A stretch of 64,000 bases of DNA, from NCBI RefSeq assembly GCF_009914755.1, contig NC_060945.1; one strand, written 5' to 3'. How positions within the stretch are numbered: position 1 is the stretch's first letter; the number at the start of each line of letters is the position of its first letter. Position numbers and translations under genes: made by a program. The DNA is from the human T2T-CHM13v2.0 reference genome, Homo sapiens. Of the stretch, positions 6,311-49,102 are shown in pieces. Under the pieces are notes generated by a model, which worked only from the letters and a program-made list of their open reading frames with translations, was not told the DNA's origin and made no database searches.

Positions 6311-9166
6311 AGAACTACGGGTTGCTGAGTTAGAAATAAATTCTCAGTTCTGAATATAATAACTGCTCCTGACACTCCCCAGAATCCTGCAAATGAGCTG
6401 GGTTTTCTGGTGCCTCTCTATAGTCCCTCTTTCTCAGGAAACACCCCCATGGTTTTCCCTGCTGTGCTATTAATTACACCCATGCTTATTATATGTCAGT
6501 TCAGTTTTATCTAGATTCTCCCGAAGTCAGTGCTGAACTTAGTTGTTTGAAAATGTATATATTGTAACAGTTACCAAAAAGACAAAATACAGCTAGATAT
6601 TTATGCTATTTGTTTCATTTCTATCGTAGGTATATTTCCTTTTAAAATTCATATGTATCTTTCTCTAAGGATTGTCTCCATTTTCAGATGTTAAACACTT
6701 TCTCATGCACAAACCACCTAAGCAGCATAGACACAGAGTCCGTGTCAGGGAATGTTACATTCAGGATAGGCACCTATTATTCTGTAACTCAGAAGCAGGA
6801 AAATGGATGTCCTCAAGCAGATGCTTTTCTTGACAGATACAAAAAATTGACAAGGATCATTGACTTACTTCCAACCCACCATTCATCTCTTTTCTCTTAT
6901 TTTGACCCTAAGGGTCCCAGAGGGATAATGGCCCTACATTGTTATTTAGAATTCAGATTTCAGACTGCATTTCTTATATCATTTTTTATAAGTAGTGGTT
7001 GCACACAGTTGAGACAATACTATGATATTAATCTACATTCCTCGTTAAATTGATTTTTTTGTCTTCTATTTTTTTAGCTTAGGTACAATTTCTCACACGG
7101 TTTCTCAGGAAGGAACATTGGGATTTCCCAATGACTTAAACATTTAGAACATAGTCTATTCATATATATGAAGAGCTTGTGTAGAAAGTATAATTTACTT
7201 ATACTATTACGCTTAAGAAATTATGTGAAATAATGTGAAAATAATCTTATAACATTTGCATGCATATTTGCCGCAAGAGTCATACTTCATTGATACTTAA
7301 TCATAATCTTGGACATTGCGGGTTCCAATAACCAATATTTAATGCAAGACTGTAAACTTACTAGAGAGAAAACCTTATTTATAAATTTTCATGTATTCTT
7401 TTCTTGACAATAATAATGAGCTATGAGATTTGTATTTTAAGATACTTAGTAATAAAAAGTTTAATTTTTAAAACTTTTATTTTTAAATTCTGCTTAATTG
7501 CATAAAAGTTAAAAGGTAATATTTAATATTTAATGAGGCTTATTGATCTAAATGATGATATGCAGCTTGGGTTATACTTGCAATTATAAGATTTGCTCAT
7601 TACACCTAAGCAATCTCCTTCACTCAATCTAGCTACCACAAAGGAAGCAAAATTCCCTGAATGATAATATCAAAGCATTCCATTATGTTTTCTATTAAGG
7701 TGTTTTGTTCTTTGAATCATTGTCTATTTTAATTTATCCTTTTAGAAAGAAAACAAATTACTTAACTTGCATTTCCCACTAGAAGCTTCACTGCAGCTAG
7801 ACTTGGAATTGATTTCAGGCCATTTTTTAATAAATGATGGTCCCCAGTGAAGGATAGAATATTTGAGCAATCAATACTGAGTAAATAAAAGGGTTTTTTG
7901 GGTAAATAAGAGAGAAGATACCTATTTTTTTCAAATATTTTAAATATCTAATAACCTATTCCTCATCTAAAACAAGCCACAATTACTGGAAATGATGGTC
8001 AGAGGAAGGTTTTATCAACCCTGTGTAATACTACACGTCATGTTGGATCACTATTACAGAGAAACAGTTGTCATGCTGCATTGTAATAACTCTACACATT
8101 ACCAGAGAAATAAACAACTCTATAGCCACAGAAATCCAACATAGCTACTGTCTACATATTCTTGTTTTAGACCTTTGGTGAAAATACTATGTGTATTAAA
8201 TATATTTTACATTAGTTTTATCACAAAAAATAAAAATGAGAATTCTATTAAATGCTAATATAAACTCTGGCATGAAAGAAAAATTAAAATCAAAGCTGAT
8301 CTTAATTAACAAAGTGTATTATCTGCTTACATGTATATACAACTATTCATATACAAAGGCACACATGCACTTGTGGTTTTGAAAAATATCTATTTCATTT
8401 CAAAAATTCATTGAACAATATTACATATGGCAAGAAAACTGCCCTTTTTGAAGGATCTTTTAAAAAGTGTTAAACTTTATTAGATACTTCAAACTAGCAA
8501 AGCTCAACTTCATCACAATTATATAATAACACTGCACGCTTTCAATTTTATCTCTAGAAATATACCTATCCCTTGAAATAAACTCTGTGAACTTCTTGCT
8601 CACAGATTTCATTTCAAGCCTTGAAAATGCAGAAAATCAATGCCAAATATACTTGACCCAAGAGGAAAAGAAAATTTCAGGGGTGTCAGGATGTTTTATC
8701 ACATAAAATACAGAATTGCAATTTGTATCTGAGCAGGCAACACACCTCCAAAAATAATACAATACTTATCACAAAATACATTCACAGATACTAGATTTGG
8801 CACAAACCACTCCATACAGCTATTGATCAAGTCAATATTGAAAGCCTTATTACAAAATCTATGGCCCTTTTCTACTCTCCAACAGACATTTCAGGATGCC
8901 ACAAACTTGCAGCTCCACTCTATCATTAATTTCCCCTAAATACGCTTGGCAGAAGAATGAGAAACGTCACGTTTTTTCATTTAATTTCTAAAGAACATCA
9001 CATCCTTTAAGAATAGGTTCTTGAAATTTTAAAATGTAAAACATAAAAACCCTAAAGAAAAGAAACAAACATCCAAAAACTTTTCTTCAAAATCACAACA
9101 ACTTTATATGCTATGTGTTCTTGTAAAATACCACACACACAAACTCACATGCATACCCACCCCCCC

Positions 9167-9170
<4 letters not shown>

Positions 9171-9203
<33 letters not shown>
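9171..9203. repeat. (CA)n microsatellite
   Basis: Pure CA run read directly. Confidence 0.97.
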
Positions 9204-9205
<2 letters not shown>

Positions 9206-9230
9206 AGCCTCATAATACCATATATATATA

Positions 9231-9364
9231 TTGACGTTTAAGCAATTTGTTGTAATCTTCTGCCAGGTTTTTGTTACAGGGTATTGTAATGCCTCTACAC
9301 CAGTTAAATTGAAATAGAGTTAGGTGTGAGTAAATGCATCAAAATTGAAGCCATCTTTCCGAAA
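9231..9364. repeat. Left arm of 134-bp inverted repeat (partner 10888-11021)
   Basis: Manual alignment to the reverse complement of 10888-11021 gives 130/134 identity, no gaps. Confidence 0.95.
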
Positions 9365-9400
9365 AATGCAGCATGACAACTGTTTCTCTGTAATAGTGAT
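9365..9400. repeat. 36-bp inverted copy of 8047-8082
   Basis: aatgcagcatgacaactgtttctctgtaatagtgat is the exact reverse complement of 8047-8082. Confidence 0.95.
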
Positions 9401-9411
9401 ATACATATCTG

Positions 9412-9414
<3 letters not shown>

Positions 9415-9464
<50 letters not shown>

Positions 9465-10862
9465 TATTCATATATATATTCATACACATATATTCATATA
9501 TATATATTCATACACATATATTCATATATATATATTCATATATATACATATATATTCATATATATTCATATATATATTCATATATATATACATATATATT
9601 CATATATATTCATATATATATACATATATATATTCATATATATATACATATATACATATATATATTCATATATATATTCATATATATATTCATATATATA
9701 TTCATATATATATTCATATATATATTCATATATATATTCATATATATATATTCATATATATATTCATATATATATATTCATATATATATTCATATATATA
9801 TATTCATATATATATTCATATATATATATTCATATATATATTCATATATATATATTCATATATATATTCATATATATATATTCATATATATATTCATATA
9901 TATATATTCATATATATATTCATATATATATTCATATATATTCATATATATATATTCATATATATATTCATATATATTCATATATATATATTCATATATA
10001 TATTCATATATATTCATATATATATATTCATATATATATTCATATATATATATTCATATATATATTCATATATATATATTCATATATATATTCATATATA
10101 TATATTCATATATATATTCATATATATATATTCATATATATATTCATATATATATATTCATATATATATTCATATATATATTCATATATATTCATATATA
10201 TATTCATATATATATTCATATATATATTCATATATATTCATATATATATTCATATATATTCATATATATATTCATATATATTCATATATATATTCATATA
10301 CGTATATTCATATATATATTCATATATATATTCATATATATATATTCATATACATATATTCATATATATATATTCATATACATATATTCATATATATATA
10401 TATTCATATACATATATTCATATACATATATTCATATACATATATTCATATATATATTCATATATATATATTCATATATATATATTCATATATATATATA
10501 TGCATATATATATATATTTATATATATATTCATATATATATATTCATATATATATATTCATATATATATATTCATATATATATTCATATATATATATTCA
10601 TATATATATTCATATATATATTCATATATATATTCATATATATACATATATATTCATATATATATTCATATATATACATATATATTCATATATATATTCA
10701 TATATATATTCATATATATATATTCATATATATATATTCATATATATATATTCATATATATATATTCATATATATATATTCATATATATATATATTCATA
10801 TATATATATTCATATATATATATTCATATATATGAATTCCAACAGAATTCCATATATATATA
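9415..10862. repeat. AT-rich micro/minisatellite: (TA)n then CATATATATATT-type units of about 10-16 bp
   Basis: About 1.45 kb of TA runs punctuated by TTCA or TACA; almost no G. Confidence 0.98.
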
Positions 10863-10887
10863 ATGAATTCCAACAGAAAAAAGCCAA

Positions 10888-11021
10888 TTTCGGAAAGATA
10901 GCCTCAATTTTGATGCATTTACTCACACCTAACTCTATTTCAATTTAACTGGTGCAGAGGCATTACAATACCCTGTAACAAAAACCTGGCGGAAGATTAC
11001 AACAAATTGCTTAAACGTCAA
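10888..11021. repeat. Right arm of 134-bp inverted repeat
   Basis: Reverse complement of 9231-9364 with 4 transitions. Confidence 0.95.
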
Positions 11022-11099
11022 ACCAAAGACTCACATAATTTCATCATAAAGTGAAATTTGCATCCAACTCTCAAAGAATTAGAACATCCTTGCACTTAC

Positions 11100-11221
11100 C
11101 TTGGCCTTGTCCATTCCCCTGATGACCCCAAAAGACCACAGTCATCATCAACAGTCCCGGAGCCCACGTCCACATCCTTCTAGTGACACTTTCATGTCTT
11201 CTGGCCATTGCATCTTAAACT
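11100..11221 (-). pseudogene. ROBO2: Duplicated first coding exon of ROBO2 isoform a (signal-peptide exon), unprocessed fragment
   Basis: Minus strand: acceptor ...atatgcAG, 13-nt UTR, ATG at 11208, MARRHESVTRRMWTWAPGLLMMTVVFWGHQGNGQGQ plus G (109 coding nt), donor G|GTAAGT at 11099. Matches the remembered ROBO2a N-terminus (MARRHERVTRRMW...). The upstream block ends at 14786, suggesting a paralog. Confidence 0.9.
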
Positions 11222-11929
11222 CTGCATATTCAGTGGGGTGGATGTGAAAGTACAATAAATTACATTCTTAGAGAAATATACTACGACTCAAATCCCATAT
11301 CTAATATGCACTTTGCATTTCTGAATTATCCTGCTTACAAGGAGGTACATTTGAAAATCATGCTTCCCTTTAGGATTGTCATATTGATGATTAATATGAA
11401 AGCTCATTCATCTTTAATCTTTATTCTAAGCATTCATCTGAATTACATTTTTAATATCATTTTCCAAAACAGGCCATTTAACCTATGAATGTTAAAAAGT
11501 ACTCCCAATATACATATTGGAGTTCAGTCAAGCAAAAAAATTGTGTATGGACAGTACTTAAGTATAACTTGATATTTAGGCAAATTGATGAATTTAACAT
11601 ACCATGTAATCTCTACATATATACAAAAGGACTTTTCAACACACTTATGTAAGTTTAGCATAAATACCCTTGAAAATATTCTCAAGTTTTAAGTGGTATT
11701 CTAATTATGGCAGTAATTAACTGAATAAAGAGATTCATCATGTGCAAAAACTAATCTTGTTTACTTAAAATTGAGAGTAAAATTAATTATAGAAGTTACA
11801 AAACACTTGTAATTTTGGTTTCAGATATATAACCCACAGGACTTTCATATATACAAACATTATATATGACAATGTATATTTGAATGTTCATTTTGAAACT
11901 GCTTTTCATACTGACACATGAAAATACTT

Positions 11930-12130
11930 AAATGTCCACCAAAGCAAGGTTATTTATTCATACATTTGAATGATATACAGTAGCTCAAAAGAATAAACTT
12001 GAGTTGCATGTACTAATATGGATGTGTCAAAAATGAATAGTGAAGCAAAACTAGCAAATTGAATAATAAGTTCAAAACTATACCTTTCATATGTAAACAT
12101 GTACAATAGTTAAAACTATACATTTTATGT
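11930..12130 (+). mobile_element. Old L1M 3' fragment
   Basis: aaatgtccacc...tattcatacatttgaatgatatacagtag is an L1ME-like 3' motif. Confidence 0.5.
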
Positions 12131-12659
12131 TGCATAAATATATAATACAGTATAATAGCGCATAAGAATGATAAACACCTTCAAGACCAAAGTTAGGAAA
12201 TTACAAGACTACAATTTAAATGATTAACAGGTGGAATTTTAAATCAGAGGTTACTCCTAAATCCCAATTTTTCCACAGTTGACAAAATACGGAGTTAAGA
12301 AAAGTAAATTTAATGATTTCCAGAATGAATGCTTTATTCAAAATGCTACATAATTACAATTCTAATAAACTTGCAAGGGAATCCAGTTACCCAGAAGTTT
12401 TCTTTCTCCCTTTCTCCTACATCACGAAAGGGGAAGATTTAATTACCAACTTTGCATTACTTAACTTCAGACTCATAGTATCAGAGCTAAAGAGAAATGT
12501 AAGAAACACCTAACTCAACCTTTCCATTTTAAATGACCAAATGATTTGAGAAGGTTACAATGACATTTCTAAGTTCATATGTAAAAACAGAATTTTGATG
12601 ACAATGACAGTTTAAGTACTAATAAACACTCCATGAAAAGTTACTGTAATCCAGGTTAT

Positions 12660-13658: not shown

Positions 13659-14637
13659 TATATACATTCTTTTAACTACTACTTGCAGATATTTGTTCCC
13701 TTATAATTATAGGGGAACCACTTTCACTTAGTATCAAAATATCCAGATCCACTCATCAAAGTGTAAATAATCCTTGAGTAAATTACTTTTGCAAATTTAT
13801 TTTTATGTAATATTTACTTAACTTCCTCTTACCTACATCCAGTAGTCAATTTAAAAGGCAGAATTTTTACTATTTTATATAGAACTGAGGCAGTATTTGA
13901 AAAAAATCTCAAAACACTCTTCAGGAAGGACTGGCATCTAAAACACCAGTTCCAATACATATTTTAGTAACATTTTAATGGACAGATGGTTTTCAAAATG
14001 TTATTATAATTAAAAAAAAACCTTCCTCTGAGTTGATGTTTATGGAAAACTAATATTTCATAAATGCCAAGTTACTATGATGTATTATCTGAATGCTGCC
14101 CCTGCCATTCTATAAATATAAAAATCATAGCCTTCTAGCTAACTTTGGTATTAGTCAACAGTTGTGCTGATGAAAAGTAAAATCAATTCATTTAAAAAAA
14201 ATTTTCATGAAAGAAAAAACAAGTAACTTGTAAGAAGCATGGTAGATGAACCAAAAAATAAAGTAAGATTAACCATAAAGACATGCCATGGACTTCTCTT
14301 TTTTTGGAACACCCTTTTCATGCATATGAGAATAAAAATTAAATATTAAATACCTACTTTATGTATGTACTTTTACTTGTACCTATTGCTCTTTAAAGAT
14401 TAAAATAACTCCTAAAGCCTGGATAGTTGAGCCCATTGTGCTCTTCTGCCCATAAAATTGCTAAGCTGTGAATGGAAGTCCACATTAACAATATGAAGAT
14501 GTTCATCTCTGTTTTTGCAAGTTAAAGGAAAGAAGTTTGTTTTAATCTAACCAGATAGAAATGAGGCTGGACACGTTTAAAAAAATAAGCCCCAAAGCAA
14601 ATGCTATCAAATGCAGAATAGAGAGAAGAAATCCTTA

Positions 14638-16510
<1,873 letters not shown>

Positions 16511-44907: not shown

Positions 44908-45257
44908 TCATTTCATTATTTCATCATTTCACTTCATTTCATCATTTCATTTCATCATTTCATACCATTTCTTCATTTCATCATTTCGTTTCATTTCACC
45001 ATTTCACTTCATCATTTCATTTCAGCATTTCATTTCATTTCCTCATTTCATTCCACCATTTCATTTCATCATTTCATTTCATCTCATCATTTCATTTCAT
45101 CATTTCATTTCAGCATTTCATTTCATCATTTCACCATTTCACTTTATCTCATCATTTCATTTCATTTCATCATTTTATCATTTCATTTCATTTCATCATT
45201 TCATTTCATCATTTCATTTCATTTCATGTCATCATTTCATCATTTCATTTCATTTCA
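44908..45257. repeat. (CATTT)n / CATCATTT satellite-like islet
   Basis: 350 bp of degenerate CATTT pentamers, an AT-richer relative of the HSat2/3 CATTC pentamer. Confidence 0.9.
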
Positions 45258-48430: not shown

Positions 48431-49102
48431 CCGCGGCGGTAGGGGCAAAAAGCTGCGACGGCGGGGTTAAAAAGCCGCAGCGGTAAAAACCTGCGGCGGC
48501 GGGAGTAAAAAGCCGCGTCGACAAAAAGCCGTGGCGGCGGGGAAAAAGCCGCGGTGGTGGGGGCAAAAAGCCGCGGCGGCGGGGGCAAAAAACCACAAAA
48601 AGCCGCGGCGGCGGGCGCAAAAAGCCGCAACGGTGGGGGCAAAAATCCGGGGCGGTGGGGGAAAAAGCCGGGGCGACGGGGGCAAAAAGCTGCGGTGACG
48701 GGGGCAAAAAGCCGTAAAAAGCCGCAGCGTCGGGGGCAAAAAGCAGCAAAAAGCCTGGGCGGCGGGGGCAAGAAGCTGCGGCGGGAAAAACCTGGGGCGG
48801 CGGGGGCTAAAAGCCGTAAAAAGCCGCGGCGCCGGGGGCCAAAAGCCATAAAAAGCCGCGGCGGCGGTGGCAAAAAGCCGCGGCTGAAAAAGTCGCGGTG
48901 GCGGGGCCAAAAAGCCGCGGCGGCGAGGGGAGAAAGACGCAAAAAGCTTCAGCGGCAAAAAGCCGCGGCGGCGAGGGCAAAGAGCCCCAAAATGCCGCGG
49001 CGGCAGGGGCTAAATTCCGCGAGGCTGGGGGCAGAAAGACGTAAAAACCCGCAGCGGCGGCAGGAAAAATCCACGGCGGCAAAAAGCCGCGTCGGCGGGG
49101 GC
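48431..49102. repeat. GC-rich CAAAAAG-type tandem array 2
   Basis: Same unit and orientation as 14787-16510, about 670 bp. Confidence 0.95.

What the first reader, a model, noticed from the sequence alone, without database searches (positions are those of the whole stretch)
8047..11021. Multi-step template-switch scar around the AT-rich array
Seen: 9231-9364 is an inverted copy of 10888-11021 (130/134), joined with no spacer to 9365-9400, a perfect inverted copy of 8047-8082. At the far end of the array ATGAATTCCAACAGAA occurs twice (10832-10847, 10863-10878). Two inverted inserts thus derive from opposite sides of the TA array. Inference: this fits serial template switching (FoSTeS/MMBIR or Pol-theta templated insertion) at a fork-stalling TA tract.
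Basis: partly seen in the sequence, partly recalled or inferred. Interest (0 to 1): 0.75.

Follow-up and report, generated by a model that had tools for sequence, protein, structure and literature searches.

The report
Ancient copy-paste repair scar, acrocentric chromosomes
A 1.6-kb insert of backwards-copied neighbouring DNA plus an AT-rich repeat sits in four copies of a duplicated segment and is missing from two older copies; it is likely the scar of one DNA-repair accident millions of years ago, a known kind of event with no sign of function.

Summary
The segment has six copies in T2T-CHM13. Four (chr21, chr13, two on chr22) carry the insert; chr3:75.99 Mb and chr20:26.23 Mb are empty, with only a 19-27 nt TA run. 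So 9231-10862 is a 1,632-nt insertion, flanked by a duplicated 13-mer, and the 1.4-kb array lies inside it rather than pre-dating it. Donor A lay 26-159 nt from the insertion point, donor B 1.15-1.3 kb upstream. Junction overlaps are 0-1, 2, 2, 3 and 3 nt; the 2-nt A/B overlap shows only against the ancestral donor. Diagnostic bases show local copying after the chr20 split and before the four copies diverged (roughly 5-14 My, recalled rate). Best reading: serial template switching in replication-based repair (MMBIR/FoSTeS-like, 0.62). Polymerase theta fits less well, as a 134-nt tract and a kilobase reach exceed its usual range. Transposon ends and assembly error are excluded. Complex germline templated insertions are a known, common class. 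One oddity: three substitutions beside donor B all match donor A (post hoc P about 0.002), as if the donors had paired. Interest low to moderate.

The parts
8009..8163 (+). Single 155-nt hybrid unit left by collapse of a ~156-nt tandem duplication (two units in chr3 and both chr22 copies; one in chr20, chr21, chr13); holds donor B
8047..8082 (+). Donor B, template of arm B (38 nt against chr22 unit 1, including the 2-nt overlap with arm A)
8083..8090 (+). Cluster of three substitutions (8083, 8086, 8090) at the donor-B edge; found in acrocentric unit 2 and the chr21/13 hybrid, absent from chr3, chr20 and chr22 unit 1; all three match donor A / arm A in one register
9218..9230 (+). Left copy of the duplicated 13-mer (CC plus TA run); native insertion site
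   Evidence: empty sites in chr3 and chr20
9231..9364 (-). Arm A: inverted 134-nt copy of donor A
9365..9400 (-). Arm B: inverted 36-nt copy of donor B
9401..9414 (.). 14-nt linker: TA-like bases plus CTGGTG, possibly a fold-back copy of arm A 9296-9303 (weak, shuffle 1050 of 20000)
9415..10833 (+). AT-rich array, unit about ATATATATTCAT (10-14 nt), starting with a 42-nt pure TA run; 511-1519 nt across the four copies; absent from the empty sites
10832..10847 (+). Extra direct copy of the 16-mer that follows the native TA run
10848..10862 (+). Return segment: TTCC, then the right copy of the 13-mer (10850-10862); two back-slips on 3-nt overlaps, or a short fold-back
10863..10878 (+). Native 16-mer; colinear sequence shared with chr3 and chr20 resumes here
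10888..11021 (+). Donor A, native sequence present in the empty paralogs; 26-159 nt past the insertion point in the pre-insertion allele
10951..10968 (+). Stretch of donor A whose reverse complement matches 8080-8097 at 15 of 18 (12 of 18 before the cluster; arm A copy 9284-9301 matches 16 of 18)

Best explanation
9231-10862 is a 1,632-nt insertion into a short TA run, absent from the chr3 and chr20 paralogs and built from inverted and direct copies of nearby sequence, likely in one replication-based repair event with several template switches (MMBIR/FoSTeS-like). Shown: the empty site, the donors, the junction overlaps, copying from the acrocentric lineage's own donor, and inheritance by four copies. 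Inferred: a strand end in the TA run copied 134 nt from just past the site, switched on a 2-nt overlap to a site 1.15-1.3 kb upstream for 36-38 nt, fell back onto TA sequence, re-copied the 16-mer and rejoined through two 3-nt overlaps, duplicating the 13-mer. The direction of synthesis cannot be told, and the reverse order fits equally. The array unit was probably seeded by a fold-back copy of TA plus TGAA and then expanded by slippage as a variable tandem repeat. No function is indicated.
For: 6 of 6 genomic copies of the segment were examined: 4 carry the insert and 2 are empty. The A/B junction pattern hits exactly those 4 places, with 0 for the reversed control. The flank tree is (((21,13),22b),22a),20),3, with 0-0.05%, 0.3-0.5%, 0.7-1.1%, 2.7-3.5% and 3.9-4.1% divergence from chr21. 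All arm-A copies with a base there share the acrocentric-derived donor bases at 10892 (4 of 4) and 10933 (3 of 3; deleted in chr22a), so they were copied in cis after the chr20 split. Site 10903 (donor changed, copy ancestral) and site 10955/9297 (copy changed) are shared by all 4 copies, so the insert pre-dates their divergence. Junction overlaps are 0-1, 2, 2, 3, 3 nt. Complex multi-template germline insertions with this layout are described: 33 of 103 and 26 of 99 events in two people, with up to five templates (PMC8421209, section 10 part 1 and passages). Polymerase theta tracts are rarely over 10 bp and usually come from within 30 bp (PMC7165422, passages), unlike arm A and donor B.
Against: The first junction has only 0-1 nt of overlap, which is chance level, and 2-3 nt overlaps in AT-rich DNA are weak on their own. 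The empty-site TA run is short (19-27 nt), so a stalled fork is not shown. The order of steps and a single event are inferred; no intermediate allele was found among the 6 copies. The same array motif occurs at 14 unrelated loci, none with a long inverted insert next to the array (0 of 14; one 31-nt inverted pair at chr17:11.49 Mb lies ~1.2 kb away), so the array need not come from this event. The 14-nt linker is not resolved. Sequence alone cannot name the polymerase.
Confidence: 0.62

Rival explanations
1. Polymerase-theta-mediated end joining of a double-strand break in the TA run made the insert by repeated aborted synthesis, possibly only the short right-end pieces, linker and array seed.
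For: The short AT-rich direct and inverted pieces at the right end, with 2-3 nt overlaps, match described TINS: AT-rich, direct and inverted, several rounds (PMC7165422). 10800-10900 folds into a hairpin, z -4.64, 0 of 200 shuffles as good. Polymerase theta repairs breaks at TA repeats and favours templated short duplications on ecDNA (PMC13645644).
Against: Arm A is 134 nt in one tract and donor B is 1.15-1.3 kb away. The paper finds first-round tracts rarely over 10 bp, templates typically within 30 bp, and distal templates in under 0.1% of repair.
Confidence: 0.18
2. The structure built up in two or more separate events at an unstable TA site along the same branch: for example arms first and array later, or the right-end duplication first.
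For: The branch is long (69 substitutions in 5,894 columns). The array motif arises independently at 14 other loci. The arrays differ strongly between copies (511-1519 nt; a different variant unit in chr22b), so growth of the array after the event is certain.
Against: All 4 filled copies have the same non-array junctions, apart from one base in the chr22a linker. All inserted pieces sit between the two copies of one 13-mer. No partial allele exists among the 6 copies.
Confidence: 0.12
3. Pre-made fragments, such as a lagging-strand (Okazaki-sized) piece or a cut flap, were ligated into the break by end joining rather than copied by a switching polymerase.
For: The first junction has 0-1 nt of overlap. 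Arm A is 134 nt and is the reverse complement of the strand just past the site, the geometry of a leading-to-lagging strand join (inference; Okazaki size recalled).
Against: Both donors remain intact in place. The other junctions have overlaps, and the right end needs re-copying of 16 and 13 nt.
Confidence: 0.07
4. The arms are the terminal inverted repeats of a non-autonomous DNA transposon, or the structure is an assembly fold-back.
For: A 134-nt inverted repeat encloses an AT-rich interior.
Against: The right arm is native sequence in the empty chr3 and chr20 sites and was found at only 6 places in the genome. No duplication flanks 9231-11021 (extensions). Four loci have different array lengths and substitutions that follow the flank tree, and the copy keeps an ancestral base its own donor has lost (10903).
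Confidence: 0.01

Closest known systems
Complex germline MMB-TI (MMBIR-linked templated insertion), PMC8421209
   Same: Insertion from several local templates in inverted and direct orientation, short overlaps at junctions, return to the original site, germline and gene-neutral.
   Different: Fixed in a reference segmental duplication and datable with paralogs; one template is 1.15-1.3 kb away (their search distance was 100 bp); a 0.5-1.5 kb AT-rich array sits inside the insert.
Short-range template switches in great-ape genomes (four-point model), PMC7954356
   Same: Inverted copy of nearby sequence creating a near-perfect inverted repeat; evolutionary time scale.
   Different: They model one switch out and back, median tract 12 nt, maximum 128, template within 100 nt. 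Here there are at least five junctions, a 134-nt tract and a kilobase jump.
Polymerase-theta templated insertions (TINS), PMC7165422
   Same: AT-rich direct and inverted pieces, 2-3 nt overlaps, several rounds; fits the right end well.
   Different: Arm A length and donor B distance are far outside the usual range.
Structure-forming AT/TA repeats at fragile sites (FRA16D Flex1 type), PMC11797062
   Same: TA run at the site; the chr21 and chr13 alleles now hold 42 and 46 nt of pure TA (21-23 units), near the stated ~22-unit threshold.
   Different: The empty sites hold 19-27 nt; the long array is interrupted every 10-14 nt and is a product, not the cause.

Membership tests
Complex locally templated insertion (MMB-TI / MMBIR-like) | Inserted sequence absent from the ancestral allele | tested here: met
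   Empty sites at chr3 and chr20
Complex locally templated insertion (MMB-TI / MMBIR-like) | Insert copied from two or more nearby templates that stay in place | tested here: met
   Donors A and B, 16-mer and 13-mer; copying in cis shown by sites 10892 and 10933
Complex locally templated insertion (MMB-TI / MMBIR-like) | Microhomology at the switch junctions | tested here: inconclusive
   0-1, 2, 2, 3, 3 nt; present at 4 of 5 resolved junctions but short, in AT-rich DNA, and two rest on an inferred pre-insertion allele; the linker junction is unresolved
Complex locally templated insertion (MMB-TI / MMBIR-like) | Origin at a collapsed or stalled fork in one event | not testable with these tools
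   Inferred; no intermediates among 6 copies
Polymerase-theta TINS | Short synthesis tracts (rarely >10 bp) from templates within ~30 bp | tested here: not met
   134-nt tract; donor B 1,148-1,303 nt away; met only by the right-end pieces
Polymerase-theta TINS | Dependence on POLQ | not testable with these tools
   Needs experiment
DNA transposon / MITE | Both terminal inverted repeats absent from the empty site, with a target-site duplication outside them | tested here: not met
   Right arm is native in chr3 and chr20; the duplicated 13-mer bounds 9231-10862, not the arms
DNA transposon / MITE | Dispersed family of copies | tested here: not met
   Only the paralogous segment was found; the search skips very common words, so counts are lower bounds
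L1-mediated (TPRT) insertion | Target-site duplication with poly(A) tail and TT/AAAA-type cut site (features recalled) | tested here: not met
   A 13-nt duplication is present, but no poly(A) tail or such site is seen
Cruciform-forming TA fragile site as trigger | Pure TA run over ~22 units before the event | tested here: not met
   27 and 19 nt in the empty paralogs; the length at the time of the event is unknown

The most novel reading that the evidence does not exclude
The scar records its own intermediate. The two donors, 1.3 kb apart, paired as an imperfect 18-nt inverted stem and exchanged bases in both directions: three substitutions at the donor-B edge match donor A, and the one change shared by all arm-A copies matches donor B's unit. 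The same event also founded a hypermutable AT-rich tandem repeat by fold-back copying of the flank. Template-switch repair would then edit its templates and found tandem repeats, and flank fold-back could be a general source of interrupted TA arrays (4 of 14 unrelated arrays end in the same TA-GAA edge).
Probability: 0.22. Interest if true: 0.6.

Novelty: new member of a known kind. Interest (0 to 1): 0.3.

Why it matters
As a known class it matters little: non-coding, no annotated gene in the window, no Rfam match. Its value is as a well-resolved fossil. Paralogs give the empty site, the ancestral donors and a time bracket, which patient rearrangements rarely offer. The junctions are also a marker separating the chr21/13/22 copies from chr20 and chr3, useful for tracing the duplication in ape assemblies. 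If the donor-pairing clue holds, it gives a testable reason why a polymerase jumps to one site a kilobase away on a 2-nt overlap. The derived allele also carries a 134-nt inverted repeat around an unstable AT-rich array on short arms where heterologous acrocentric chromosomes recombine (PMC10172130, passages; whether this place lies in a listed pseudo-homologous region was not checked), so it is a candidate fragile spot; that is untested.

Tried and rejected
Transposon ends and assembly fold-back: rejected by the empty sites and lineage-consistent substitutions. A pre-existing large array as trigger: rejected. A blunt A/B join: rejected once the ancestral donor was used. Linker source: no full-length match in the window; the best local pieces are 7-10 nt of TA-like sequence; the 8-nt match to arm A is reached by 1050 of 20000 shuffles, so it is weak. 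Stable pairing of the ancestral donors: not supported; duplex energy -6.8 kcal/mol from 5 pairs, with 12% of 608 local 30-mers as good or better. Flank-seeding of the array motif: 3 of 7 loci in the first set but only 1 of 7 in the second (P 0.16 alone), and all four positive arrays hold inverted units internally, so the edge call is uncertain. Rfam at gathering thresholds: 0 matches in 7500-12000. The repeat finder was swamped by the array and gave nothing on the arms. Literature: ten searches listed no paper whose title or abstract start describes this locus, a templated insertion founding a tandem repeat, or altered donors. Searches returned none; the library lacks most subscription papers, and most hits were seen only as listings. 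PMC12767296 has no mention of ROBO2, chr3 or chr20 by term search. A paper on template distances at deletion breakpoints was not held, so that comparison was not made. No supplements were read; those of PMC8421209, PMC7954356 and PMC10172130 could bear on whether this place is listed.
Full report
Observation. 9231-9364 is the reverse complement of 10888-11021 at 130 of 134, 9365-9400 is the reverse complement of 8047-8082 at 36 of 36, and the 16-mer occurs at 10832 and 10863. With the array masked, the two arms are the only inverted matches of 90% or more in 7500-12500, at E 4.9e-61 and 2.9e-13. The array runs 9415-10833 with a unit of about 12 nt, and carries C but almost no G on the + strand.

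Paralogs. Searches of the genome with the flanks found six copies of the segment: this one, chr13:10.98 Mb, chr22:11.22 Mb (22b), chr22:6.46 Mb (22a, inverted), chr20:26.23 Mb and chr3:75.99 Mb (inverted). Four carry both inverted arms; a 26-nt pattern across the A/B join hits exactly those four, with none for the reversed control. chr3 and chr20 are empty: between the same flanks they have only a TA run, 27 and 19 nt pure. The insertion is therefore 9231-10862, 1,632 nt, bounded by two copies of CCATATATATATA at 9218-9230 and 10850-10862. The array is part of the insertion. Before the event donor A lay 26-159 nt past the site, and donor B 1,148 nt upstream, or 1,303 nt if the first unit of the tandem duplication was used. 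That chr3 is the source copy follows from its being the outgroup here and is an inference. The ROBO2 label was not tested beyond a compatible GRCh38 interval in PMC10551147 (passages).

Order and age. Over 5,894 gap-free flank columns chr21 differs from chr13 at 1 site, from 22b at 22, from 22a at 50, from chr20 at 187 and from chr3 at 236. 69 substitutions fall on the branch shared by the four filled copies. In arm A the copies share the acrocentric-derived donor bases at 10892 and 10933, so they were copied from the local donor after the chr20 split; 10892 is a CpG site and weaker evidence. At 10903 all four donors changed while all four copies kept the chr3/chr20 base, and at 10955/9297 all four copies differ from all six donors. 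The insert therefore existed before the four copies diverged. An assembly fold-back could not keep a base its own donor has lost. A simple likelihood puts the event at 0.5-1.4% divergence per lineage before the present. With a recalled rate near 0.1% per million years that is roughly 5-14 My. Exchange between acrocentric short arms (PMC10172130, passages) can make the younger bound look too young.

Junctions. Left flank to arm A: 0-1 nt overlap. Arm A to arm B: blunt against this window's donor, but 2 nt (AA) against the ancestral donor state kept in chr3, chr20 and chr22 unit 1; a later change at 8083 hides it here. Arm B to TA-like sequence: 2 nt. The 14-nt linker has no full source; its 8-nt match to the reverse of arm A 9296-9303, which includes the derived base, is reached by 1050 of 20000 shuffles. 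Right end: the 16-mer, then TTCC, then the 13-mer can be read as two back-slips on 3-nt overlaps (GAA, CCA), or as a short fold-back with one extra base; 10800-10900 folds with z -4.64. These last overlaps rest on an inferred pre-insertion allele.

The array. It measures 1417, 1519, 511 and 1067 nt in chr21, chr13, 22b and 22a, although the chr21 and chr13 flanks differ at one site, so it behaves as an unstable tandem repeat. 22b has a second variant unit. Its unit is the reverse complement of TA followed by TGAA, which is how the array ends. Four exact-pattern searches found the motif at 14 unrelated loci, all 14 examined. None has a long inverted insert beside the array. 4 of 14 end in TA followed by GAA, against a background of 224 of 9036 (binomial 3e-4). 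But this was 3 of 7 in the set where I noticed it and 1 of 7 in the second set, all four hold inverted units inside, and my edge rule is crude (the chr12 5' edge still looks like array). So the motif is generic, fold-back seeding is plausible, and birth in the same event is inferred only from its position between the templated pieces.

An oddity at donor B. Donor B lies in a ~156-nt tandem duplication: two units in chr3, 22a and 22b, collapsed to one hybrid unit in chr20 and in chr21/13. The acrocentric second unit has three substitutions within 8 nt (8083, 8086, 8090), directly at the donor-B edge. No such triplet occurs among the 69 branch substitutions in the flanks, though 2 occur among 142 chr3-versus-rest differences. 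All three match donor A in one inverted register, raising 12 of 18 to 15 of 18, and the change shared by the arm-A copies matches the unit, giving 16 of 18. The observed bases are the unique best of 27 combinations. 6 of 3000 random triplets and 1 of 452 other 134-nt window segments do as well, and it is the only register at 14 of 18 or better within about 2.5 kb. Against: the test was post hoc; the ancestral duplex is unremarkable (-6.8 kcal/mol, 12% of 608 local 30-mers as good); two of the three changes also perfect a 7-nt local inverted repeat with 8052-8058 (seen in the sequence); and the cluster cannot be placed with certainty on the same branch as the insert.

Mechanism. The best fit is one replication-based repair event with serial template switches (0.62). 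Germline multi-template insertions are common: 33 of 103 and 26 of 99 events in two people, with up to five templates (PMC8421209; section 10 part 1 of 2 and passages). Polymerase theta tracts are rarely over 10 bp and usually come from within 30 bp (PMC7165422, passages), which fits the right end but not the arms (0.18). Stepwise build-up (0.12) and ligation of a pre-made lagging-strand fragment (0.07) remain open. Fork stalling is not shown. Cruciforms are said to need more than ~22 units (PMC11797062, passages), while breaks at tracts of 6 or more units were mapped on ecDNA (PMC13645644, passages). The four-point model for ape genomes covers single short switches, maximum 128 nt, template within 100 nt (PMC7954356, passages), so this event is larger than that class.

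Verdict. A real, non-coding, fixed repair scar of a known kind, not found described in ten literature searches of an incomplete library, and unusually well resolved by paralogs. Interest 0.3. The donor-pairing and repeat-birth reading has probability about 0.22 and would deserve 0.6.

Noticed in passing
window 8009-8163; L011, L014, L015 (two units); L012, L013 (one unit): A ~156-nt tandem duplication collapsed to one hybrid unit twice independently (chr20; chr21/13), given the flank tree.
   Followed up: yes
window ~14460-14790: The match to the chr20 copy ends near 14458 and a GC-rich CAAAAAG-type repeat begins at 14789; beyond it the window matches a different, many-copy duplicon (chr2, 7, 9, 10, 13, 14, 17, 21, 22). 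The scar lies ~4-5 kb from this boundary. The chr3 end was not located (no hit over 200 nt).
   Followed up: partly
window 14789-16464 and 48431-49058: Two blocks of the same GC-rich ~22-nt repeat; recalled as typical of pericentromeric duplication boundaries, not tested.
   Followed up: no
L016, L019, L024, L044, L046, L047, L052-L059: The same interrupted TA array motif at 14 unrelated loci; the reversed control patterns gave 0, 0, 0 and 3 hits against 81, 2, 29 and 55, so the TTCA interruption seems favoured. 4 of 14 end in TA-GAA and 3 of 14 begin TTC-AT.
   Followed up: partly
L024 (chr11:125.05 Mb), 5' edge of the array: A 7-nt inverted copy of the flank across a short TA run, a small fold-back switch.
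   Followed up: no
window 9415-9456; chr13 copy in L013: A pure TA run of 42 nt (46 nt in chr13) at the array start, absent from both chr22 copies (longest 14-15 nt), so it grew after the chr22b split and is near the stated cruciform threshold.
   Followed up: partly
window 44908-45257: A degenerate TCATT satellite-like patch of ~350 nt.
   Followed up: no
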